Sequence record: OZ035790.1
Direction: 5' to 3' (one strand)
DNA: 64,000 bases
DNA from: Felixounavirus LF110P4
Below are positions 30-58,455 of this stretch, piece after piece. Below the pieces are notes generated by a model. That model did no database searches. It was not told the DNA's origin and saw only the letters and a list, made by a program, of their open reading frames with translations. Within the stretch, counting starts at the first letter, position 1. Each line of letters starts with the position of its first letter. The position numbers were made by a program, and so were the translations under genes.

Positions 30-1631
30 ATGGACTTAAATGCTGTTAAGCAGAAGCGAGTGGAAGATGTTAGGAAAGTCCTAGCTGGAGAGTTGGGGCT
101 TTCTGATGAAGTAAAAGAAATTATCAAATCATTCGGTAAAGACCCCTCTAAATTCCTTCCAACTCAAATTCTGACTTTATTAAGATACACACCAGACCAA
201 GTTCGCCTCATCTTTAAATTGATGACTGATAAGAACTATGTAGCCCCTCAGCCGGGTTCTCAAGAGGTCTTTTTAAATACTAATGCTGACTTGGTTCTCT
301 ATGGTGGTGCTGCTGGTGCTGGTAAAACTGCCGCATTGTTAATGGACTCTTTAAGATTTATTGAAGACCCTAACTATAATGCTGTATATTTCCGTCGAAA
401 TACAACACAGTTACAAGGTGGTTTATGGCCTGCTGCAAAGAAACTATTTGGTAAGTTTGGTGGGATTCCTCACGAGCAGAAAATGACTATCACATTCCCT
501 TCTGGGGCGACTATCAAGTTTACCTACCTAGAACTTGAAAAGCACGCTGAAGGTCATCAGGGTATTGAATACTCAGCTATTTACTTTGACGAAGGTACAC
601 ACTTCTCTGCTTCACAGATTTCATACCTACAGACCCGTCTACGTTCTGGTGCTGAAGGTGATTCATACATGAAGATTTCTATGAACCCAGATAGAGACCA
701 CTTCATTTATGATTGGGTAGAGCCATTCTTAGATGAAGAAGGTTACCCAGACCCTGAGAAATGTGGTCGTATTCGTTGGTATGTTATGAATGATGGTGTG
801 ATGGTTTCTGATTGGGAGAGAGACAAGATTCTTGAAATGTTCCCTATTGAGATTCCTCAAACATACACCTTCATCTCTGGTACGATTGATGATAACCCAA
901 TCCTTGACTTCTTAGAGCCTAAGTACCGTGGTAAGTTGGAAAACAACACCCCTGTAAACGTTGCAAGACTTCGTTTCGGTAACTGGAAGGCTCGTGCAGA
1001 AGGTTCAAACTACTGGCAAAGACAATGGTGTGAGATTGTTGATTCACTCCCAGAAGATGTATTTGATGTTAGAGCATGGGACTTAGCAGCAACTTTACCA
1101 TCTGAGATTAACCCTAATCCAGACTGGACAGCAGGTGTTAAGATGGGTAAATCTAAAAAAGACGGTTGCTATTATATCATTGATGTAGTAAGATTTAGAG
1201 ATAGACCCTCTGGAGTCGAAACACAAATTAATTTGACTGCTGAAAGTGACGGTAAGCGAACTGGTATTTTTATCCCTCAAGACCCAGGCGCTGCTGGTAA
1301 ATCCTACGCAACATCCCTCATCAGGAAACTTGCCGAGAAAGGCTATCGAGCAAGAGCTAAACCAACAAATAAAGATAAAGTTACCCGCTTTGCGGGATTT
1401 TCTGCTGCTTCTGAGGCTGGACTTGTAAAAGTCTTGAGAGGTAGTTGGAATGAAGCTTACTTTCAAGAGCTTGAAGGCTTTTGTGGTGATGGCAAAACTA
1501 AAGATGACCAAGTGGATGCTACCAGTGATGCTTTCAACAGTCTTAACGAAGTTAAATTATTCAAGCCACCATCAATGGGTGCTCACACAGACTTAGTGAG
1601 GGGAAACCCATATGAGGGGCTTAGACGTTGA
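30..1631 (+). CDS. terL: terminase large subunit
   Basis: ORF 15..1631 (TTG in track; first ATG at 30). Walker A P-loop GGAAGAGKT near the N-terminus; first gene of the head module, followed by portal. Confidence 0.85.
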   Translation: MDLNAVKQKRVEDVRKVLAGELGLSDEVKEIIKSFGKDPSKFLPTQILTLLRYTPDQVRLIFKLMTDKNYVAPQPGSQEVFLNTNADLVLYGGAAGAGKTAALLMDSLRFIEDPNYNAVYFRRNTTQLQGGLWPAAKKLFGKFGGIPHEQKMTITFPSGATIKFTYLELEKHAEGHQGIEYSAIYFDEGTHFSASQISYLQTRLRSGAEGDSYMKISMNPDRDHFIYDWVEPFLDEEGYPDPEKCGRIRWYVMNDGVMVSDWERDKILEMFPIEIPQTYTFISGTIDDNPILDFLEPKYRGKLENNTPVNVARLRFGNWKARAEGSNYWQRQWCEIVDSLPEDVFDVRAWDLAATLPSEINPNPDWTAGVKMGKSKKDGCYYIIDVVRFRDRPSGVETQINLTAESDGKRTGIFIPQDPGAAGKSYATSLIRKLAEKGYRARAKPTNKDKVTRFAGFSAASEAGLVKVLRGSWNEAYFQELEGFCGDGKTKDDQVDATSDAFNSLNEVKLFKPPSMGAHTDLVRGNPYEGLRR

Positions 1632-1647
1632 TAGCTAGGTGAGAAGA

Positions 1648-3114
1648 ATGGCAGATATTACAGAAACACAAGAAAGCTTACCACCATTTAGAATGGGTGA
1701 AGTAGGTTCTTTGGGTCTGAAGGTTAAGAATGGAAGAATCTATGAAGAACCTCGTCAGGCACTAAGGTTCCCTGAAAGTATTAAAACTTTCCAATTAATG
1801 ATGCGTGACCCTGCTGTAGCAGCATCTGTAAATATTATTAAGATGTTTGTCAGAAAAGTCAACTGGAGATTCGTACCTCCAAAGGGAAAAGAGCAAGACC
1901 CTAAAATGCTTGAAAGAGCAGACTTCTTTAATTCTTTAATGGATGACATGGAGCATGATTGGGCAGATTTTATTAATTCTGTAATGTCATTCTGCACTTA
2001 TGGGTTCTGTGTTAACGAGAAAGTTTATAAGAAGCGTCAGGGTAAGAAAGGAAAGTACCAGTCAAAATTTGATGATGGTCTAATTGGATGGGCTAAATTA
2101 CCAATCAGAAACCAGTCAACGCTTGATAAGTGGTATTTTGACGAAGACTTTAGAAAAGTTACTGGTGTTAGGCAGAATCTTAGAAATGTTTCACATATTG
2201 CTGGAGCAATTAATCTTGGAGAAAGACCACTAACAAGAAAACTCCCACGAGCTAAATTCATGCTGTTTAAGTATGACGATGAATATGGAAACCCAGAAGG
2301 TCGTTCACCATTACTTAATGCCTATGTGCCGTGGAAGTATAAAGTTCAGATTGAAGAGTACGAAGCAGTCGGTGTTTCAAGAGACTTGGTAGGTATGCCA
2401 AAAATTGGTTTACCACCAGATTATCTGGATGAAAATGCAGAACCTGAAAAGAAAGCTTTCGTACAATACTGCAAAACTGTTGTTAACGATATGATTGCTA
2501 ATGATAGAGCAGGCTTAATCTGGCCTAGATATATCGACCCAGATACTAAAGAGGATATTTTCGAGTTCTCATTAGTTTCTAGACAGGGTGCTAAAGCATA
2601 CGATACAGGTTCTATTATTGACAGATATTCCAAGCAGATTATGATGGCATTTATGTCAGATGTTCTTGCTATGGGTCAGTCAAAATATGGTTCATTCTCT
2701 CTTGCAGATTCTAAGACAAGCTTACTAGCAATGTCAGTAGATATTCTGCTTAAGCAGATTAAGAACGTAATTAACCGTGATTTAGTTGCACAGACTTATG
2801 CTCTTAATATGTGGGACGATGAAGAACATGTACAAATCACTTATGATGATATCGAAACTCCAGACCTTGAAGCAATTGGTTCTTATATCCAGAAGACTGT
2901 TGCAGTAGGTGCTTTGGAAGTTGACAAAGAGCTATCTAACAAGCTTAGAGAGCATATTGGTCTTCCTCCTGCTGATGAGTCTCAGCCAGTATCTGAAAAG
3001 CTTTCTCCAAATAGCCAAAGTCGTTCAGGAGATGGTTATAAGACCGCTGGAGAAGGTACTGCAAAGACACCTTCAGCGAAAGACCCAAGCACAGCAAATA
3101 AGGCAAATAAATAA
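1648..3114 (+). CDS. portal protein
   Basis: ~490 aa ORF directly after terminase; ATG 1648 preceded by aggtga RBS; acidic/basic C-terminal tail; position and size typical of portal. Confidence 0.65.
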   Translation: MADITETQESLPPFRMGEVGSLGLKVKNGRIYEEPRQALRFPESIKTFQLMMRDPAVAASVNIIKMFVRKVNWRFVPPKGKEQDPKMLERADFFNSLMDDMEHDWADFINSVMSFCTYGFCVNEKVYKKRQGKKGKYQSKFDDGLIGWAKLPIRNQSTLDKWYFDEDFRKVTGVRQNLRNVSHIAGAINLGERPLTRKLPRAKFMLFKYDDEYGNPEGRSPLLNAYVPWKYKVQIEEYEAVGVSRDLVGMPKIGLPPDYLDENAEPEKKAFVQYCKTVVNDMIANDRAGLIWPRYIDPDTKEDIFEFSLVSRQGAKAYDTGSIIDRYSKQIMMAFMSDVLAMGQSKYGSFSLADSKTSLLAMSVDILLKQIKNVINRDLVAQTYALNMWDDEEHVQITYDDIETPDLEAIGSYIQKTVAVGALEVDKELSNKLREHIGLPPADESQPVSEKLSPNSQSRSGDGYKTAGEGTAKTPSAKDPSTANKANK

Positions 3115-3614
3115 TGGCTGAAGTTATCTCTATTTCAAATGCTACACGGGTGCATTCGTATAGAGGTGTTCTTATCATCACTGACAAGTTATCTGTAGAG
3201 GCTGGCTCAAGGGTCAGCCTTTCAGGTTATGTAAGTGATGGTGGAGCCTCTGACGTTTTCACTATTTGTAGGTTACTTGATGCACCAATGAGTGGAAAAC
3301 CGTTTATTTCAGGAAATTGTAGTGAAATTGTTAAAATTCCATTTGACAGTTCATGCCTTTTGGGTGTAAAGTTATATAACTGCGAGAATAAACGTATCAA
3401 TGTTAATAGCATTGAAGCCGCTTTCATTACCCTCGACACTGCATTTCAATCTCCAATGACAGTTAATAAAGAAACAAACAGACTTGAATACATTTTTTCA
3501 CAAAATGATTACAAAGTACTTGTCAAAGGCAAAGTATATGATATGATTGTAAATGTGGTAGATGAATCTGGTAACCATTCAACAGTCCTTAAACAAAAAG
3601 TAAGGTTTAATTAA
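3114..3614 (+). CDS. hypothetical head-module protein
   Basis: 166 aa ORF between portal and prohead protease; no recognisable motif. Confidence 0.4.
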   Translation: MAEVISISNATRVHSYRGVLIITDKLSVEAGSRVSLSGYVSDGGASDVFTICRLLDAPMSGKPFISGNCSEIVKIPFDSSCLLGVKLYNCENKRINVNSIEAAFITLDTAFQSPMTVNKETNRLEYIFSQNDYKVLVKGKVYDMIVNVVDESGNHSTVLKQKVRFN

Positions 3615-3946
3615 TGGGAACATTAACTATTGATGGTAAGAATAAAATCCTCGCCACGCTAACCCCAACGACTATTATTTTACACAATGTAGACCCAACG
3701 GCAGACCCTACAGCAAATAAGGTTACTCAGCCAGTGGCTATTTATTTTTCTGAACCGGATAATGGCTTAATTGCCTCAGAAGATACAGTTAATATTACTG
3801 TTCCAGCTTCTGCAACGGTCTCACACTATAGCTTGTGGGATGCTAACGATAAATGCGTGGCAACTGGTGCTCTTAGCAAACCTCAATTCTTTGCTGAAGA
3901 AGGTATCTATGTTATCTCTTCAGTCTCTGTAGATTTAAACAAATAG
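3614..3946 (+). CDS. hypothetical head-module protein
   Basis: 110 aa ORF, start overlaps upstream stop; head module context. Confidence 0.4.
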   Translation: MGTLTIDGKNKILATLTPTTIILHNVDPTADPTANKVTQPVAIYFSEPDNGLIASEDTVNITVPASATVSHYSLWDANDKCVATGALSKPQFFAEEGIYVISSVSVDLNK

Positions 3947-3957
3947 GGTGAGTAAAA

Positions 3958-5304
3958 ATGAGTTCGAATATCTTCAGACTTGCTGATAGATTATTCAACC
4001 AACCTTTACTAGCCACTGAATCATTAGCTCACTCAGCAGCAACTTATGTGAATAACAGATTGCTGGGTGATGTCCAAGCAGCAGTAAACTTTGATAAACC
4101 CAAAGGTGAAGCAAGAAGTCTTTTAAAAGTAAAAGATGACATTGCTATTATTCCTATTATGGGTGGTTTAACCCATCGTATGACATTCATTGATGCAATG
4201 TGTACTGGTGGATTAAGCTCTTATGAAGGTTTGCGTAGAGGCTTTGACGAAGCTTTAGCAGATGAGTCAATCAAGACTATTGTTCTGCATATTGATTCCG
4301 GTGGTGGTGAAGCTTCAGGTTGCTTTGAATTAGCACGTCACATTATGGCTTCAAGAGGCCAAAAGAAAATTATTGCTTATGTAGATGAGTTCGCTTGTTC
4401 CGCTGCATACGCTCTTGCATCTTCTGCTGAAGAAATTATTGCATCACCAGATGCAGATGTTGGTTCTATTGGTGTAATTATGGTTCATCAGGAATTAACT
4501 AAGGCATTTGAAAAGAATGGCGTAACAATTAACGTCATCAAAGCTGGTGAGTTTAAAGGTATGGGTTCACCATTCCAAGCACTCTCAGAAGAAAGCAAAG
4601 AAAGACTTCAAAAGAGAATTAATGATACCTACGCAACCTTTACAGGTTTTGTAGCCGAATCTCGTAATCTCTCTGAAGAAGCTGTAAAGAATACTGAGGC
4701 GAATGTTTATTCTGCTCAGGAAGCTCTTGAACTTGGTTTAATTAACTCAATCATGTCTCAAGATGATTTCTTAAATTACTTACAAGGTTCTGAAGAGGCT
4801 CCTGTAAGTTTAAACGTTAACAATTCAGGTGAAGAAATGACTGAACAAGAAAAGCAAGAACTAGAAGCTTTGCGTCTTCAGGTTGCTCAAATGAAAGCTA
4901 AAGAACAGGAAGCTGCTTTGTCAGATTTGACTAATAAGATTTCTGCTTCTGCTGAAGCTTTTGGATTTGATGCAAAAGAAGCTGCAACGACTATTTTAGG
5001 TGCTGGTCTTGATAACCCTCTGAGTGTTCTATTTATGAATGCTATGGAAGGTGCTAACCAGAAACTTAATGAAACTATCGCGTCCCATGCTTCTGCAATG
5101 GAAGAAAAAGAATCAGAAATTACCAAGCTGAAAGAAACTGCTGGTGCTGTTCTTGAACATTCCAACGCTATGGAAGAAGTGGGTAATGACGGCGAAGCTG
5201 ATTTGGTTGAAGAAGAAAAAGAACCAGCTAAGAATGCTTCCGAAGACACCGCTGAACAACGCAAACTGGCTCTCCAGAATGCTCTAAAATCTCTTATCAA
5301 ATAA
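3958..5304 (+). CDS. prohead protease / scaffold fusion (S49 ClpP-like peptidase with C-terminal coiled-coil acidic scaffold domain)
   Basis: N-terminal half resembles S49/SppA-type serine peptidases (HIDSGGGEASG, VDEFACSAAYALAS); C-terminal ~170 aa is E/K/A-rich and coiled-coil-like; sits between portal and capsid. Confidence 0.7.
   Translation: MSSNIFRLADRLFNQPLLATESLAHSAATYVNNRLLGDVQAAVNFDKPKGEARSLLKVKDDIAIIPIMGGLTHRMTFIDAMCTGGLSSYEGLRRGFDEALADESIKTIVLHIDSGGGEASGCFELARHIMASRGQKKIIAYVDEFACSAAYALASSAEEIIASPDADVGSIGVIMVHQELTKAFEKNGVTINVIKAGEFKGMGSPFQALSEESKERLQKRINDTYATFTGFVAESRNLSEEAVKNTEANVYSAQEALELGLINSIMSQDDFLNYLQGSEEAPVSLNVNNSGEEMTEQEKQELEALRLQVAQMKAKEQEAALSDLTNKISASAEAFGFDAKEAATTILGAGLDNPLSVLFMNAMEGANQKLNETIASHASAMEEKESEITKLKETAGAVLEHSNAMEEVGNDGEADLVEEEKEPAKNASEDTAEQRKLALQNALKSLIK

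Positions 5305-11285: not shown

Positions 11286-11286
<1 letters not shown>
10646..11286 (+). CDS. tail assembly chaperone -1 frameshift fusion product (GT-like)
   Basis: -1 frame is open from 10966 to 11286 and overlaps the end of the 10646 ORF; T_TTT_TTC slippery site at 11002-11008; canonical position upstream of tape measure. Confidence 0.5.
11002..11008 (+). other. candidate -1 programmed ribosomal frameshift slippery heptamer (T TTT TTC)
   Basis: zero-frame codons agT TTT TTC; -1 frame continues into the ORF annotated 11047..11286. Confidence 0.5.
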
Positions 11287-19305
<8,019 letters not shown>

Positions 19306-26204: not shown

Positions 26205-26504
26205 TTAATCTGCCAACCTTAAATTGAAATTAACACCAAATTTTTCACATACTTCCAACATATACTCAAGGGAGACGTTACCAGTGAGATGGATTATGTT
26301 GGATACACGAGCCTGAGAGATACCACAAATTTTAGCAACTTGCTCTTGAGAAAGACCTCTGGATTTAATCTCTCTCTTAAAACGATGTGCAACGAAGTCT
26401 CTCATTTCGTCTACATCCATTGGACAAATATAACTCTCCATTTCAGCCTCTCTATCAGCCTCCCAATCATCTTGTGGGGCATAAGGGTCAAAAACCTCAT
26501 TCAT
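26205..26504 (-). CDS. XRE-type helix-turn-helix protein
   Basis: HTH-like segment GLSQEQVAKICGISQARVSNIIH; likely ATG at 26504 with ggaag RBS (track ORF extends to 26534). Confidence 0.5.
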   Translation of the reverse strand: MNEVFDPYAPQDDWEADREAEMESYICPMDVDEMRDFVAHRFKREIKSRGLSQEQVAKICGISQARVSNIIHLTGNVSLEYMLEVCEKFGVNFNLRLAD

Positions 26505-26709
26505 CTTTCTTCTTCCGTTTGCGTGAAGTGTCAATTAATGAATCTATGTTTGTAGCCCTAACCTTTTCACGTTCATCGTTAAGATAATCATCAAGAGCCT
26601 TTTCAATCTGTGAATCATCTTGACAGATGACTGTAAAGACTGTAAAGCCGTCTGTATCGTCAATTATCTTACCATAACCGCTTCTGGGATGTAACTTTTT
26701 AAGAGCCAT
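26497..26709 (-). CDS. hypothetical protein
   Basis: 70 aa ORF with basic C-terminus. Confidence 0.35.
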   Translation of the reverse strand: MALKKLHPRSGYGKIIDDTDGFTVFTVICQDDSQIEKALDDYLNDEREKVRATNIDSLIDTSRKRKKKDE

Positions 26710-26710
26710 A

Positions 26711-27094
26711 TCAGATACCTGTGCAGCTTCTGTTTTCTAAGAAATACTCAACACCATACATGGCTTTTTGCATCAAATCTTCTTTAAACTGAATACGATG
26801 ATTGAGCATAGTTTGTACATCAATATCGTCATGGTGTTTCTCTTTAATATTTGCAGATTGTAGGAAATACTCTGCAAGAACACGATACTGATAGTCAGTT
26901 ACCTTATCAGTCATCTCTGTTAAAGACTCTTCAGAGATTGGTTTCAGTAGCTCACCATTAGCTAGAGCAACACCTTTTACAATCTGGCAAGTATCTTCTG
27001 GAACACCTGACAAGTCCACATTTGGGAGTTCTGTTGCATTGACTGGTAAATTCATTGCCATAACCATTGCAGCAGCTAATAAAATCTTTTTCAT
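26711..27094 (-). CDS. secreted (periplasmic) protein of unknown function
   Basis: 127 aa; N-terminal Sec signal peptide MKKILLAAAMVMAMNLPVNA; has its own promoter. Confidence 0.55.
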   Translation of the reverse strand: MKKILLAAAMVMAMNLPVNATELPNVDLSGVPEDTCQIVKGVALANGELLKPISEESLTEMTDKVTDYQYRVLAEYFLQSANIKEKHHDDIDVQTMLNHRIQFKEDLMQKAMYGVEYFLENRSCTGI

Positions 27095-27132
27095 AATGAC
27101 CTCAAAGTTATATTAAATTTTGTATTACATTG

Positions 27133-27167
27133 AGTATAAAAATAAGCTATAACACCTGACTTGTCAA
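27133..27167 (-). promoter_or_regulatory. sigma70-like promoter (TTGACA-17-TATTTT, TATACT further downstream)
   Basis: minus-strand ttgaca at 27167-27162, ~40 nt upstream of the 27094 start codon. Confidence 0.45.
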
Positions 27168-27189
27168 CAGATTTTATAGCTTATTTGGC

Positions 27190-27592
27190 AGATTTTTTAT
27201 AAGGCTACTGCCATCCTTCCATACCCTACCTTACCACACCTAACCATACCTAACCAAACTACACCATACAATACCTTATTAAAAGACCCTCTTAAAGACC
27301 TTTTAAAAAGGTAAGTCTCATTTTAATGTAGCTCCGATTAACTACCCACACCTTACCTCACCTGACCTGACCTGACCCTACCTAGCATTACCGTGCCACA
27401 CCTCACTTAAAAACCCTCTTAGAAGACTCTTAAGTGATGTAATCGGATTTTAATGTAGCTCCGATTAACTACCCGCACTTTACCAAACCTCACCCTACCC
27501 TACCAGACCTTACCTAACCGCGCCGTACCTCATTAAAAGACCCTCTTAAAGACCTTTTAAAAAGGAGCCTCCGAAGAGGCTACCTAGTCAAC
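27190..27592. repeat. composite non-coding repeat region A (NNACC pentamer tracts, conserved hairpins, 33-nt and 37-nt direct repeats)
   Basis: no ORF; exact 33-nt repeat at 27279-27311 and 27533-27565; 37-nt block 27403-27439 recurs at 28969-29005; pentamer tracts 27211-27276, 27344-27402, 27471-27531. Confidence 0.8.
27560..27587 (-). terminator. intrinsic terminator after the 27593 gene
   Basis: minus-strand agcctc-ttcg-gaggct hairpin followed by TTTTT. Confidence 0.6.
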
Positions 27593-28033
27593 TTAGAAAG
27601 GTTTTCTACGTTGCTTGTTAATGTTAGCTTTCATAGCAGCTAAATGGTTTTGCTGTTCAATTAGTCGTGAACGTTCTTGATGGCTAAGTACCATAGTGTT
27701 CACATTCTCAATCGCTTGAGTGGCTTGCTTTAAAGCACGACCAATCTTACCAGACATTTTACGTTTTGCAATAGTTGCTTGATGCTTAGGTTCAACCACA
27801 CGATAACCAACACCCATTGAAGCAACCAGATAAATCTTCTCTTCTTTAAGAAGCTTCTCAATAAACTTCTCAAGTCGATTTAAGCGTGTAAGCGCATAAG
27901 CCTTCATTTCATCTTCGTACTTAACAATGTCACCTTGATAAGTTGGCTTCACAATACCTAAGAAGGTGTCCATCTCAGAATGTGATACAGTGTCACCGTA
28001 ACTAAACTTTGCTGCTAATGCTTTTGTATTCAT
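27593..28033 (-). CDS. hypothetical protein (repeat-flanked cassette gene 2)
   Basis: 146 aa, basic C-terminus; start is 2 nt from upstream stop. Confidence 0.5.
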   Translation of the reverse strand: MNTKALAAKFSYGDTVSHSEMDTFLGIVKPTYQGDIVKYEDEMKAYALTRLNRLEKFIEKLLKEEKIYLVASMGVGYRVVEPKHQATIAKRKMSGKIGRALKQATQAIENVNTMVLSHQERSRLIEQQNHLAAMKANINKQRRKPF

Positions 28034-28035
28034 AA

Positions 28036-28641
<606 letters not shown>

Positions 28642-28654
28642 TTAGTTGATTGTT

Positions 28655-29005
28655 AAGTTGTTTGTAAAGAACCCTCAATAGAAGACTCTTTAGAAACTTG
28701 GTAGATTTTTAACGTGGCTACTACCATCCACCCACACTTTGCCATACCTCACCGCGCCTTACCCGACCTGGCTGCACCTTGCCTTGCCAAACATCACTTA
28801 AAAACCCTATGAGATACCCTATCGAGTATAATTTAAAGGCTCTTAAGTGATGTAAGTCTCATTTTAATGTAGCTGAGACTAACTACCCATACCCTACTTT
28901 ACCTTGCCGTACCGTACTTTACCCGACCACACCGGACAATACTTAACCCTACCTCACCCGACCGGACATCACTTAAAAACCCTCTTAGAAGACTCTTAAG
29001 TGATG
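28655..29005. repeat. composite non-coding repeat region B (NNACC pentamer tracts plus hairpins with 10-bp arms)
   Basis: hairpins with catcacttaa / ttaagtgatg arms at 28792-28852 and 28967-29005; stem-loop 28855-28880; pentamer tracts 28724-28790 and 28884-28966. Confidence 0.8.
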
Positions 29006-29035
29006 CTGGTGAGTACCCGTTGGTCTATGCTGTTC

Positions 29036-29063
29036 AGTATACTCACCAAATTTTCTATGTCAA
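29036..29063 (-). promoter_or_regulatory. sigma70-like promoter (TTGACA-16-TATACT) driving the repeat-containing leader and cassette
   Basis: minus-strand ttgaca (29063-29058) and tatact (29041-29036), immediately downstream of the ligase stop. Confidence 0.45.
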
Positions 29064-29069
29064 CAACTT

Positions 29070-30173
29070 TTATTCATAATCTCGTATAATGAGACCAACA
29101 GGGAACTGTAAAGAACCCTTACGAGTCATCTTCTGGAACTGAACCGTTAAAGGTTTCCCGATAAACTCTTCAGGATGCTCAGCAAGATACTGTTTCTTCT
29201 CATGAGTAGTCTTCCATGAGACATCTACAAAGACGTTAGGAAGAGTCTCTACAACGAACTTACCATGACCACGTTTATCAGTCTTTACACCAGTAACTTT
29301 AAACTCTTCAGTGTGCATCTTCTTGTGCTTAATCAAGAAGTATGAACGGTGGCCACACTCATAGAAAGATTCTTCAGAGATTGAACGGTACATTGCACCT
29401 TCAAACTTAGCTTCAACCCACTTATCATGAGCTTCATCAAATTCTTCCCAAGAATTTACACGACGAGACTTAACAGGAATAACTTTACAGCCATCTCTGA
29501 AGTCATTCAATGGTGAAGTCTCAATAATATCTCTACGCTCAGGCCACGTCTTAGTGCTGTCACAGATATCGTACCAGTAAAACTTGAGTAAATGTCGGTC
29601 AGGATTGTCTTCATTTTTAATCATGGAGACAATATCTTCTAAGTCCAACCCGTGAGCATAGATTTCACCATCAAATTCATCAACGTCTTTATGGAGCCTC
29701 AACATTGCCATAATGTCAGGTATTAGCTCAGTAGGAATTTTATAAATAGTGTTCTCACGAGAATATGCTGTAAATACGCTGCCAATACTTAAGTGTCTTG
29801 AAATTCTACAACGGACACCATCAAGTTTTGGTTGAGCATCAGCAGGGAACTTCAGATACTTTGCATGGCTAACCTTTGCAGCATCATGAGCAAGCTGTAC
29901 ACCTACCTTCTCAGTATTCTGTGCAGACTCTTTTGTGTAAGAATAACCTTTGCGGTCAACTTGCTTTTTATACTTAGCAGCAACTTCAAAGAGGGCTTGC
30001 TGTTCAGTGTTACGCTCATTCTTTTTACCGATGTTTTTAGGTTCTGCTGTATACTCTTCAAACATCATCTTGCCATTTTCTTTACCGTAGGTTGTAATAA
30101 CTTTGTCACCTACAGCAACGCATGACCAGACGTTGAAGGAACCGTCTTTATTTTGTTTGTACAGAATTGTCAT
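29070..30173 (-). CDS. ATP-dependent DNA ligase
   Basis: adenylation motif KLDGVR; ATG at 30173 with gaggt RBS (track ORF extends to 30209). Confidence 0.85.
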   Translation of the reverse strand: MTILYKQNKDGSFNVWSCVAVGDKVITTYGKENGKMMFEEYTAEPKNIGKKNERNTEQQALFEVAAKYKKQVDRKGYSYTKESAQNTEKVGVQLAHDAAKVSHAKYLKFPADAQPKLDGVRCRISRHLSIGSVFTAYSRENTIYKIPTELIPDIMAMLRLHKDVDEFDGEIYAHGLDLEDIVSMIKNEDNPDRHLLKFYWYDICDSTKTWPERRDIIETSPLNDFRDGCKVIPVKSRRVNSWEEFDEAHDKWVEAKFEGAMYRSISEESFYECGHRSYFLIKHKKMHTEEFKVTGVKTDKRGHGKFVVETLPNVFVDVSWKTTHEKKQYLAEHPEEFIGKPLTVQFQKMTRKGSLQFPVGLIIRDYE

Positions 30174-30366
30174 TTTTAACCTCTGAGTGATACCAAGTGT
30201 CACAAGCATTACATGCGTAAAGCTCTAAGTCGTTTTTATCTGGTTTATGGAAACAGTTTGACCCACAACGACACCGGAATAACTTACCATCAACACGAAG
30301 AATGAATGTTTCAAGCTCACCATCTTCTGTAAGAACTGCGTTCTTAAATTTATCTTCTACAGTCAT
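30148..30366 (-). CDS. small zinc-ribbon protein
   Basis: 72 aa with CRCGSNC ... CNACD cysteine pairs. Confidence 0.4.
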   Translation of the reverse strand: MTVEDKFKNAVLTEDGELETFILRVDGKLFRCRCGSNCFHKPDKNDLELYACNACDTWYHSEVKNDNSVQTK

Positions 30367-57961: not shown

Positions 57962-58297
57962 ATGAAAATCAAAGAGATGAACATCAACATTGTCTTAGAA
58001 GAGCGTTGGGAGAACATCAAGAAACCTGAAAATGGTCATAAGTTCCTTAACAAAATCTTGGTAGCAGCTAAAGAAGAACTGACTGGAAAGGTTGCAGCAG
58101 CAATCACAATAAAGGTTTGTGTAAAAGGTCTTCCACAACATCACCAGTTTGCACTTGACGAGTTTAAAGAAAGCTTCTACAATCCAAACAAACAGATGCT
58201 TGAAAGTAACTTTGCAGTATCTACAAGTATCGTTCATGACAGAAGCTTTATCCTTTACAAAAATATGAGAGGTGAGTCATGCAAGCATATTGGATAG
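57962..58297 (+). CDS. hypothetical protein
   Basis: track ORF 57950 (TTG) trimmed to ATG 57962. Confidence 0.35.
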   Translation: MKIKEMNINIVLEERWENIKKPENGHKFLNKILVAAKEELTGKVAAAITIKVCVKGLPQHHQFALDEFKESFYNPNKQMLESNFAVSTSIVHDRSFILYKNMRGESCKHIG

Positions 58298-58455
58298 AAA
58301 TTTTACTGTCACTTGGTAGTGTAGCAGTATTTGTTTACCTCCTTTGTAAGTACTTTGCAGAGCACAAAAAATGTGACTACTGTAATGGAGAGGGGTACAT
58401 AAGGGCAGGATGTTGCCCTATGTGTGGTGGTTCTGGTAAAATGTTTAATAAGTAA
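58279..58455 (+). CDS. small membrane-anchored cysteine-rich protein (58 aa, absent from the >=60 aa track)
   Basis: ATG 58279 after aggtgag RBS; one TM helix (WIEILLSLGSVAVFVYLL) then two DnaJ-type CxxCxGxG motifs (CDYCNGEG, CPMCGGSG). Confidence 0.5.
   Translation: MQAYWIEILLSLGSVAVFVYLLCKYFAEHKKCDYCNGEGYIRAGCCPMCGGSGKMFNK

What the first reader, a model, noticed from the sequence alone, without database searches (positions are those of the whole stretch)
27441..27466. Stem-loop module with compensatory base changes between copies
The copy at 27441-27466 has arms aatcgga / tccgatt, while the copy at 28855-28880 has arms agtctca / tgagact. Both arms differ between copies but remain perfectly complementary, and the 12-nt loop ttttaatgtagc and the 3' flank aactaccc are identical. 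A third copy at 27314-27339 is a hybrid (agtctca with tccgatt) that cannot pair. Covariation that preserves pairing in two copies indicates selection on secondary structure, at RNA or cruciform level; the hybrid copy looks like a recombinant between the two variants.
Basis: seen in the sequence. Interest (0 to 1): 0.7.

Follow-up and report, generated by a model that had tools for sequence, protein, structure and literature searches.

The report
Guide-RNA tail pseudoknot of phage VIPR

Summary
The window is a Felix O1-like phage (Felixounavirus). The hairpins lie on the minus (gene-sense) strand in two intergenic arrays that flank a 195-aa gene. That gene's product is 97% identical to the solved "SUSP1 Vipr protein" (PDB 36pp).

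The conserved flank pairs with the hairpin's conserved loop, forming an H-type pseudoknot. Across 28 module variants 93% of pair cells are paired and 9 of 11 pairs change on both sides.

This matches the VIPR system of bioRxiv 10.64898/2026.04.26.720920 and .720927. There, vrRNAs are GGY/NN repeats plus an invariable 3' tail with a pseudoknot, shown by covariation and by cryo-EM.

The guide capped by the 27441-27466 hairpin matches 21 of 22 bases of a satellite-like element in Escherichia albertii under the published 1-nt-skip rule. The hybrid copy is private to this genome.

Verdict: already known. Possible small additions are the inter-guide hairpins and vrRNA units in phages that lack vipr.

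The parts
27441..27474 (-). 3' tail pseudoknot of vrRNA D1 (R-type stem AAUCGGA/UCCGAUU; the finding's primary copy plus the flank GGGUAGUU that pairs with the loop)
27467..27532 (-). Repeat tract (guide) of vrRNA D1: 11 NNGGY pentamers. Its NN code matches an E. albertii satellite-like element at 21 of 22 bases under the 1-nt-skip rule
27314..27347 (-). Tail of vrRNA D2 with the hybrid stem (gene-sense AAUCGGA / UGAGACU, 4 of 7 pairs). Relatives with the same guide have an intact S-type stem
27340..27406 (-). Repeat tract of vrRNA D2 (11 pentamers), a guide shared by many relatives
27187..27220 (-). Tail of vrRNA D3 (A-type: flank AAGG pairs with loop CCUU; stem UGGCAG/CUGCCA)
27213..27278 (-). 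Repeat tract of vrRNA D3 (11 pentamers)
28855..28888 (-). Tail of vrRNA U1 (S-type stem AGUCUCA/UGAGACU; the finding's second copy plus flank)
28881..28972 (-). Repeat tract of vrRNA U1 (16 pentamers)
28700..28733 (-). Tail of vrRNA U2 (D-type: GUGG/CCAC plus UGGUAG/CUACCA), identical to the tail of SUSP1 vrRNA1, the RNA imaged by cryo-EM
   Evidence: bioRxiv 10.64898/2026.04.26.720927
28726..28797 (-). Repeat tract of vrRNA U2 (12 pentamers)
28036..28623 (-). vipr gene (195 aa from ATG at 28623; the ORF lister starts it at an upstream GTG at 28638)
   Evidence: E 1.7e-127 to PDB 36pp_D 'SUSP1 Vipr protein', 190 of 195 identical; H17, E71, M72, R138, C173, D177, W178, R179 present
27593..28033 (-). 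146-aa gene in the position of vap1 (Vipr accessory protein)
   Evidence: 99% identical in the SUSP1 contig L020, same synteny; the name is inferred from the two-gene locus described in bioRxiv 10.64898/2026.04.26.720920
27566..27581 (-). Intrinsic terminator hairpin after vap1 (GCCUC-UUCG-GAGGC followed by a U run)
28967..29005 (-). T1 hairpin preceding vrRNA U1: 18-bp RNA hairpin with a UAA loop and 4 G.U pairs on the gene-sense strand
28792..28852 (-). T1 hairpin variant with a 22-nt apical insertion, between the U1 tail and the U2 tract
27401..27439 (-). T1 hairpin between the D1 tail and the D2 tract
   Evidence: (I9)
27533..27560 (-). T2 hairpin (11-12 bp, 3-4 G.U pairs) preceding the vrRNA D1 tract
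27279..27306 (-). T2 hairpin preceding the vrRNA D3 tract
29036..29063 (-). Sigma-70-like promoter P1 (TTGACA-N16-TATACT, 11 of 12) directly after the ligase stop codon. It would drive the upstream vrRNAs and vipr
   Evidence: conserved in all relatives
27139..27167 (-). Sigma-70-like promoter P2 (TTGACA-N17-TATTTT) embedded in the inverted repeat 27140-27186, just downstream of the last vrRNA
   Evidence: (I5)

Best explanation
The stem-loop is stem 2 of an H-type RNA pseudoknot that forms the invariable 3' tail of each vrRNA (guide RNA) of a type II VIPR (Viral Interference Programmable Repeat) system of the SUSP1 clade, carried by this Felix O1-like phage. The RNA is read from the minus strand. 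A run of 11-16 pentamers (NNGGY) precedes the tail. According to the 2026 preprints, one Vipr protomer binds each pentamer and sequesters the GGY. The two variable bases are presented for pairing with double-stranded DNA, skipping every third target base. [quoted passage not shown] The complex silences transcription of competing mobile elements. The stem sequence can differ between vrRNAs because only pairing matters. The loop and flank are conserved because they pair with each other and form the cap. Shown here: the protein identity, the repeat code, the pseudoknot covariation, the strand, and a natural target match. Taken from the papers: filament assembly, the capping role and silencing. 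Inferred: the hybrid copy at 27314-27339 gives a vrRNA with a defective cap.
For: Protein: the adjacent 195-aa ORF matches PDB 36pp_D 'SUSP1 Vipr protein' at E 1.7e-127, 190 of 195 identical, with the published GGY-contact residues present. Synteny: the layout is the same as the SUSP1 contig L020, which has 1 vrRNA upstream and 3 downstream of vipr-vap as the paper reports; the window has 2 and 3. Repeat code: 82 distinct arrays have lengths quantised in 5-nt steps, central G 96%, Y 98% (T 88% + C 10%), first G 78%, and free NN positions. Pseudoknot: 93.2% of cells are paired, 9 of 11 pairs change on both sides, and the pseudoknot helix is 99.1% paired with 3 of 4 pairs covarying. The loop lengths (2 nt, 1 nt, 7 nt A-rich) fit H-type geometry only on the gene-sense strand (established pseudoknot stereochemistry). 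RNA and strand: G.U intermediates occur only on the gene-sense strand. [quoted passage not shown] Function: the D1 guide matches an E. albertii element at 21 of 22 NN bases, where about 9e-5 chance hits are expected in Escherichia. That element encodes a tape-measure homologue of this phage's own (E 4e-74). Seven of 112 clade guides, D1 included, match it at 86% or more, the best three at 100% with the skipped base at the codon wobble position; the shuffled-control maximum is 83%, so six of the seven (92% or more) exceed it.
Against: No expression or binding data exist for this particular phage. Only four tail types exist, so the covariation rests on few independent events and on paralogues rather than deep phylogeny. 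I could not see the figures (S8, S9) of the preprints, so I cannot confirm that my base-pair assignment matches theirs pair for pair. One copy (L001) has loop GCCAC with flank GUAG, which is A.C on the gene-sense strand. The window's D1 target lies in a non-coding gap, whereas the paper says most targets are coding. Both sources are preprints.
Confidence: 0.93

Rival explanations
1. A DNA-level element: cruciform-forming inverted repeats plus 5-bp iterons that act as a transcription-activated (R-loop) replication origin next to the polymerase and ligase genes.
For: Two strong tandem sigma-70-like promoters and an extremely G-rich non-template strand (G 42%, C 9%) lie next to replication genes. 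The displaced DNA strand would have the same sequence as the RNA, so the covariation alone cannot separate the two.
Against: The hairpins rely on G.U pairs on one strand only (142 against 11), which a cruciform cannot use. GC skew simply follows transcription direction. The adjacent gene is Vipr, whose RNA partner has exactly this repeat. The guides match external targets under the published code.
Confidence: 0.02
2. Generic mRNA leader or intercistronic elements (terminators, RNase III sites, stabilisers), as some GenBank records annotate them, unrelated to guide RNAs.
For: The ASO1B record labels the T hairpins 'rho-independent terminator'. The S-type hairpin is followed by a U run 4 nt downstream. 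The T hairpins are 18-19 bp, close to RNase III substrate length.
Against: No proper U-tract follows the T1 or R-type hairpins. This reading does not explain the conserved loop-flank pairing, the quantised NNGGY arrays, or the target matches. The T hairpins may still be processing signals within the VIPR array, so this is a complement rather than a rival.
Confidence: 0.03
3. The perfect arms result from a mutational mechanism (template-switch 'correction' of quasi-palindromes) rather than selection on structure.
For: Only a few arm types exist. The hybrid copy shows that short-patch sequence transfer between units does occur.
Against: Template switching would not create G.U intermediates restricted to one strand. 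It would not maintain a second, interleaved helix between flank and loop in three different sequence versions. The pseudoknot has been seen physically.
Confidence: 0.02

Closest known systems
Type II VIPR system of Escherichia phage SUSP1 (Vipr + vap1 + vrRNAs; bioRxiv 10.64898/2026.04.26.720920 and 10.64898/2026.04.26.720927; PDB 36pp)
   Same: Vipr is 97% identical. The gene order is the same. The NNGGY repeat tracts are the same kind. The S, A and D tail types are the same, and the D tail is identical to that of SUSP1 vrRNA1. Targets lie on a satellite-like element that shares a tape-measure homologue with the phage.
   Different: The window has five vrRNAs (2 upstream, 3 downstream) instead of four (1 and 3). 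It has an R-type tail that the SUSP1 contig lacks. One tail has a broken stem. The guides are different.
CRISPR class 1 crRNA with its repeat-derived handle bound by Cas7-family RAMP filaments
   Same: A variable guide is capped by a conserved structured element, and a RAMP-fold protein polymerises along the RNA. The preprint draws this parallel itself.
   Different: There is no repeat-spacer array, no cas genes and no contiguous guide. The guide information is two bases out of every five. The cap is a 3' pseudoknot rather than a repeat hairpin.
Autoregulatory pseudoknot of the phage T2/T4/T6 gene 32 mRNA leader (recalled from memory: Du, Giedroc and Hoffman 1996)
   Same: Compact H-type geometry: a 1-2 nt loop crossing the deep groove of a 7-bp stem, and a roughly 7-nt loop crossing the shallow groove of a short stem. 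It serves as an anchoring point for a protein that coats adjacent single-stranded RNA.
   Different: No sequence relationship. In gene 32 the pseudoknot lies 5' of the coated region and controls translation. Here it lies 3' of the repeat tract and caps a guide filament.
TRAP-trp leader RNA of Bacillus (recalled from memory)
   Same: A protein oligomer reads a conserved triplet repeated every 5 nt with free spacer bases, and a flanking stem-loop is present.
   Different: TRAP is a closed 11-mer ring that uses the RNA only as a regulatory target, and its spacers carry no information. Vipr is an open helical filament and the spacers are the guide.

Membership tests
VIPR system, type II, SUSP1 clade | A Vipr (minimal RAMP-fold) protein gene flanked by long non-coding regions | tested here: met
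   E 1.7e-127 and 190 of 195 identical to PDB 36pp_D. The flanking gaps are 27095-27592 and 28639-29069.
VIPR system, type II, SUSP1 clade | Vipr residues that read the GGY motif (H17, R138, D177, W178, R179, E71, M72, C173) | tested here: met
   all are present at those positions. Position 175 is V, and this segment is identical to the SUSP1 chain.
VIPR system, type II, SUSP1 clade | Accessory gene (vap1) next to vipr | tested here: met
   The 146-aa ORF directly downstream is 99% identical and syntenic in the SUSP1 contig. That this ORF is the paper's vap1 is inferred from the two-gene locus description.
VIPR system, type II, SUSP1 clade | vrRNA tracts of 9-16 YNNGG repeats with conserved GGY and hypervariable NN | tested here: met
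   the window's five tracts have 11-16 repeats. Across 82 arrays G is 96%, Y 98% and first G 78%, with free NN positions and lengths quantised by 5.
VIPR system, type II, SUSP1 clade | Invariable 3' tail that folds into a hairpin plus pseudoknot | tested here: met
   (93.2% paired; both helices covary). The D tail is identical to SUSP1 vrRNA1. One of the five tails (27314-27347) fails the hairpin test.
VIPR system, type II, SUSP1 clade | Guides match natural targets under the 1-nt-skip rule, converging on a satellite or competing element | tested here: met
   D1 matches 21 of 22 bases. Seven of 112 clade guides, D1 included, match the same E. albertii element at 86% or more, and six of them (92% or more) exceed the shuffle maximum of 83%. 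The other four window guides gave no exact 10-NN match.
VIPR system, type II, SUSP1 clade | vrRNAs expressed as roughly 100-nt RNAs that co-purify with Vipr and silence transcription | not testable with these tools
   Shown for SUSP1 in the preprint. No data exist for this phage.
CRISPR array | Identical direct repeats of 23-50 nt separated by unique spacers, with cas genes nearby | tested here: not met
   the units are 127 nt with internal pentamers, and there are no cas families.
Any Rfam family | Covariance-model match | tested here: not met
   nothing better than E 0.78 and far below the gathering scores.
Intrinsic terminator | GC-rich stem immediately followed by a U-tract | tested here: not met
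   One search finds only the true terminator at 27566-27581. The tail hairpins have 12-nt loops and no adjacent U-tract.

The most novel reading that the evidence does not exclude
Two features are not discussed in the text of the preprints and may be new. First, the G.U-rich 11-19 bp T hairpins that sit between each tail and the next repeat tract may be the biogenesis signals that define vrRNA 5' ends, for example host RNase III sites. Second, roughly 100 Felix O1-type genomes keep complete, promoter-driven vrRNA units but have no vipr gene at all. UAB_Phi87 was verified genome-wide, and one of its guides still matches the satellite at 95.5%. Such 'orphan' guides could borrow Vipr from a co-infecting relative or act as decoys.
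Probability: 0.3. Interest if true: 0.5.

Novelty: already known. Interest (0 to 1): 0.25.

Why it matters
VIPR is a newly described RNA-guided DNA-recognition system, proposed to be older than CRISPR. For this genome the value is in annotation. Two regions that GenBank records label as 'repeat_region', 'DR_4' or 'terminator' are in fact five guide RNAs with a Vipr gene between them. At least one guide points at a satellite-like element in Escherichia albertii. Nothing here changes the published picture. The orphan arrays, the inter-guide hairpins and the naturally broken tail are small leads for people who work on VIPR.

Tried and rejected
- **Terminal repeat or packaging site:** rejected. 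UAB_Phi87 has 608-bp terminal repeats (PMC4837284) and the array is mid-genome.
- **Replication origin or iterons:** GC skew follows transcription only, and the structures are strand-specific RNA.
- **nut-like boxA (CCCTCTTA on the + strand):** on the wrong strand relative to the genes. It turned out to be one arm of the T hairpin.
- **Shine-Dalgarno plus small ORFs in the T element:** the AUG is not conserved and the downstream sequence is hypervariable.
- **'Conserved loop' of the T element:** my own misreading, corrected by folding.
- **TRAP-like ring, gene-32-like operator, ToxI-like decoy, two-tetrad G-quadruplex:** considered before the protein match and dropped.
- **Rfam:** no match.
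- **Pfam and PHROGs for flanking proteins:** only 'unknown function'.
- **More distant Ounavirinae (Erwinia, Pectobacterium and Hafnia phages):** no arrays within 6 kb of the ligase gene.
- **IMG/VR and metagenome pattern scans:** no new stem types.
- **E. coli complete genomes:** nothing resembling the arrays by blastn.
- **Exact 10-NN target scans:** failed for four of the five window guides.
- **Genome papers:** the Felix O1 and wV8 papers do not mention these elements.

Full report
**1. The observation**

The three copies are aatcgga-ttttaatgtagc-tccgatt at 27441-27466, agtctca-ttttaatgtagc-tgagact at 28855-28880, and the hybrid agtctca-ttttaatgtagc-tccgatt at 27314-27339. Each is followed by aactaccc. 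The exact 12-nt loop occurs nowhere else in the 64 kb window. Two degenerate relatives of the module lie at about 27187-27220 and 28700-28733.

**2. Context**

The window is a Felix O1-like phage (Felixounavirus, about 88 kb). Genes here run on the minus strand, in this order: DNA ligase 29070-30209, a 200-aa ORF 28036-28638, a 146-aa ORF 27593-28033, and a 127-aa ORF 26711-27094. The modules sit in the two long non-coding gaps and are confined to them. GenBank records of relatives label these stretches only as 'repeat_region', 'DR_4' or 'terminator'. The Felix O1 and wV8 genome papers do not discuss them.

**3. Anatomy on the gene-sense (minus) strand**

I compared about 40 related genomes, anchored on the flanking protein genes rather than on the hairpin. 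Each unit of about 127 nt has three parts.

- **(a) 'T' hairpin.** This is an RNA hairpin preceding each repeat tract.
- **(b) Pentamer tract.** This is a run of NNGGY pentamers.
It is preceded by the flank GGGUAGUU.

A near-consensus sigma-70-like promoter (TTGACA-N16-TATACT, 29063-29036) follows the ligase stop codon. A terminator follows the 146-aa gene.

The pentamer tract is very regular. In 82 distinct arrays the length changes only in steps of 5. The central G is 96% conserved, the following base is T in 88% and C in 10%, and the first G is 78% conserved. The two remaining positions are free. The strand is 42% G and 9% C.

The T element folds, on the gene-sense RNA only, into a continuous 18-19 bp (T1) or 11-12 bp (T2) hairpin that uses 3-5 G.U pairs. 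Over 38 distinct variants there are 142 G.U pairs on the sense strand and 11 on the antisense strand, and the sense folds are about twice as stable.

**4. The hairpin is half of a pseudoknot**

Across relatives only four stem types exist: AGUCUCA/UGAGACU (S), AAUCGGA/UYCGAUU (R), UGGUAG/CUACCA (D) and UGGCAG/CUGCCA (A).

The R type usually carries a G.U pair on the gene-sense strand, which would be A.C on the other strand. It is G-C in some phages and A-U in one lineage.

The conserved flank pairs with the 5' part of the conserved loop. This pairing is GUAG/CUAC in S and R, GUGG/CCAC in D and AAGG/CCUU in A.

On an ungapped 38-column alignment of 28 distinct variants:

- 93.2% of pair cells form standard pairs, against 27-37% with slid partners.
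- 9 of 11 pairs change on both sides.
- The flank-loop helix is 99.1% paired, with 3 of 4 pairs covarying.

The loop lengths are 2 nt, 1 nt and 7 nt (A-rich). They fit the classical H-type arrangement on the gene-sense strand only. On the opposite strand a 2-nt loop would have to cross the shallow groove of a 7-bp helix. That point rests on established pseudoknot stereochemistry, not on a tool result.

A metagenome scan fixed the flank and loop but not the arms. It returned only S and R stems, all fully paired, from Felix O1-like contigs. About 45 chance matches formed 0-4 of 7 pairs, which serves as a negative control. Caveat: there are few independent events, and the copies are paralogues within one clade.

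**5. Identification**

Pfam and PHROGs gave nothing for the flanking proteins. The PDB sequence search did. The 200-aa ORF (true start ATG 28623, 195 aa) matches chain 36pp_D, 'SUSP1 Vipr protein', at E 1.7e-127 with 190 of 195 residues identical. SUSP1 is a Felix O1-like phage.

Two 2026 preprints describe the system.

- **Discovery paper (10.64898/2026.04.26.720920).** VIPR systems pair a Vipr protein with vrRNAs of 9-16 YNNGG repeats. [quoted passage not shown] This is supported by a covariation figure on five tails (Fig. S9).
[quoted passage not shown] One Vipr protomer binds each repeat and sequesters the GGY. The NN bases pair with DNA while skipping every third target base.

The system silences transcription of competing elements, mostly a satellite of SUSP1.

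**6. Membership tests for this window**

- **Contact residues.** The GGY-contact residues H17, E71, M72, R138, C173, D177, W178 and R179 are present.
- **Layout.** The SUSP1 contig (L020) has the same layout, with one vrRNA upstream and three downstream, as published. The window has two upstream and three downstream.
- **Tail identity.** The window's D tail is identical to that of SUSP1 vrRNA1.
- **Repeat count.** Counting repeats as the paper does gives 12 for SUSP1 vrRNA1, matching the cryo-EM sample. It gives 16, 12, 11, 11 and 11 for the window's five vrRNAs. Twelve repeats plus a roughly 40-nt tail make the reported length of about 100 nt. From this I infer that the T hairpins are not part of the mature vrRNA.

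**7. A functional check with the published 1-nt-skip rule**

I scanned public collections with the inner ten dinucleotides of each guide. Four guides gave nothing.

The guide capped by the finding's primary hairpin (D1, tract 27532-27467) gave two exact hits. One is in an archaeal MAG, and about 1.1 chance hits are expected over the whole collection. The other is in Escherichia albertii NBRC 107761, where about 9e-5 chance hits are expected across Escherichia representatives.

The E. albertii match extends to 21 of 22 guide bases. It lies in a non-coding gap about 50 nt upstream of an ORF. The contig looks like a satellite or prophage. It lies next to the host gene wrbA, and its tape-measure protein is homologous to this phage's own (window 11286-12926, 32% over 555 aa, E 4e-74).

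Of 112 distinct guides from relatives, seven (the window's D1 included) match this contig at 86% or more, at five sites. Three guide variants, representing two unrelated sequences at two sites, match at 100% inside ORFs, with the guide bases on codon positions 1-2. The best shuffled control reaches 83%, so six of the seven (92% or more) clearly exceed it. This reproduces the published picture of guides converging on a satellite.

**8. The hybrid copy**

The two closest relatives (sp7 and Andreotti) carry the same guide array at this position with an intact S-type tail. The window differs only at the three 5'-arm positions (gene-sense AGUCUCA to AAUCGGA), and everything around them is identical. 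No other genome among those examined has the hybrid. It is therefore either a private short-patch conversion from the neighbouring R-type tail or an assembly chimera between 127-nt repeats. If it is real, this vrRNA lacks stem 2 of its cap (4 of 7 pairs).

**9. What may go beyond the preprints' text**

- **T hairpins.** They are strand-specific and rich in G.U pairs.
- **Promoter arrangement.** P1 and P2 bracket the arrays.
- **Arrays without vipr.** Arrays occur in about 230 phage records, but Vipr in only 129. UAB_Phi87 was checked across its whole genome. It has no Vipr or Vap1 homologue but has two complete vrRNA units after the ligase gene, and one of its guides matches the E. albertii element at 95.5%.
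- **Clade restriction.** More distant Ounavirinae lack the arrays near their ligase genes.

**10. Verdict**

The element is the hairpin of the 3' pseudoknot tail of VIPR guide RNAs, which is already described and physically resolved. Novelty: already known. Interest is low to moderate, resting only on the side observations.

Noticed in passing
window 28967-29005, 28792-28852, 27401-27439, 27533-27560, 27279-27306 (minus strand): Hairpins between each vrRNA tail and the next repeat tract. They are 18-19 bp (T1) or 11-12 bp (T2), with 3-5 G.U pairs that form only on the gene-sense RNA. By length arithmetic they are probably not part of the roughly 100-nt mature vrRNA, so they may be processing signals. 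The preprints' text does not mention them.
   Followed up: partly
NC_027360.1 (UAB_Phi87) 58100-58400; loci L024, L026, L030, L031, L036, L039, L040, L044: Felix O1-type genomes with no vipr or vap1 gene still carry one or two complete, promoter-driven vrRNA units between the ligase gene and the 127-aa gene. Absence was verified genome-wide for UAB_Phi87. Arrays occur in about 230 phage records against 129 with Vipr. The UAB_Phi87 guide matches the E. albertii element at 95.5%.
   Followed up: partly
L132 (Escherichia albertii NBRC 107761, NZ_BBMY01000192.1) 900-4011: A satellite- or prophage-like element next to the host gene wrbA. Its shortened tape-measure gene is homologous to this phage's own. 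Seven VIPR guides from different Felix O1-like phages, this window's D1 included, match it at five sites. The window's guide hits a non-coding stretch flanked by the 17-bp inverted repeat TCAGTTTTTAAAAAGCA / TGCTTTTTAAAAACTGA, about 50 nt upstream of an ORF of unknown function.
   Followed up: partly
window 29020-29063 and 27139-27186 (minus strand): Both promoters are embedded in inverted repeats. GGTGAGTA...TACTCACC spans the -10 and start region of P1. AAATAAGCTATAA...TTATAGCTTATTT encloses the -35 hexamer of P2. These could be operator-like sites, for instance for the HTH regulator encoded at 26205-26534.
   Followed up: no
window 28792-28852: One T1 hairpin carries a 22-nt apical insertion that forms its own extra stem and contains a TATACT / TATAAT-like hexamer. 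The same insertion occurs in several relatives.
   Followed up: no
window 28624-28638: The mechanical ORF list starts the vipr ORF at a GTG at 28638. The alignment to the solved SUSP1 protein shows that the real start is the ATG at 28623, preceded by GGAG.
   Followed up: yes
L002 (ASO1B), L022 (wV8), L001 and L003 (dune, Andreotti): Public annotations of this locus are misleading. T hairpins are labelled 'rho-independent terminator', tails or tracts are labelled 'DR_4' or 'repeat_region', and vipr and vap1 are 'hypothetical protein'.
   Followed up: yes
one search hits H67-H70: Distant Vipr homologues (32-42% identity) occur in Pseudomonas phage Medea1, Mycobacterium phage LittleE, Gordonia phage Trine and Listonella phage phiHSIC. 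This is consistent with the wide spread of VIPR types reported in the preprint. I did not check them for GGY/NN arrays.
   Followed up: no
L001 position about 1723 (phage dune): This is the one tail whose loop reads GCCAC while the flank stays GUAG. It breaks one pseudoknot pair on the gene-sense strand (A.C), the only such exception among about 100 copies.
   Followed up: no
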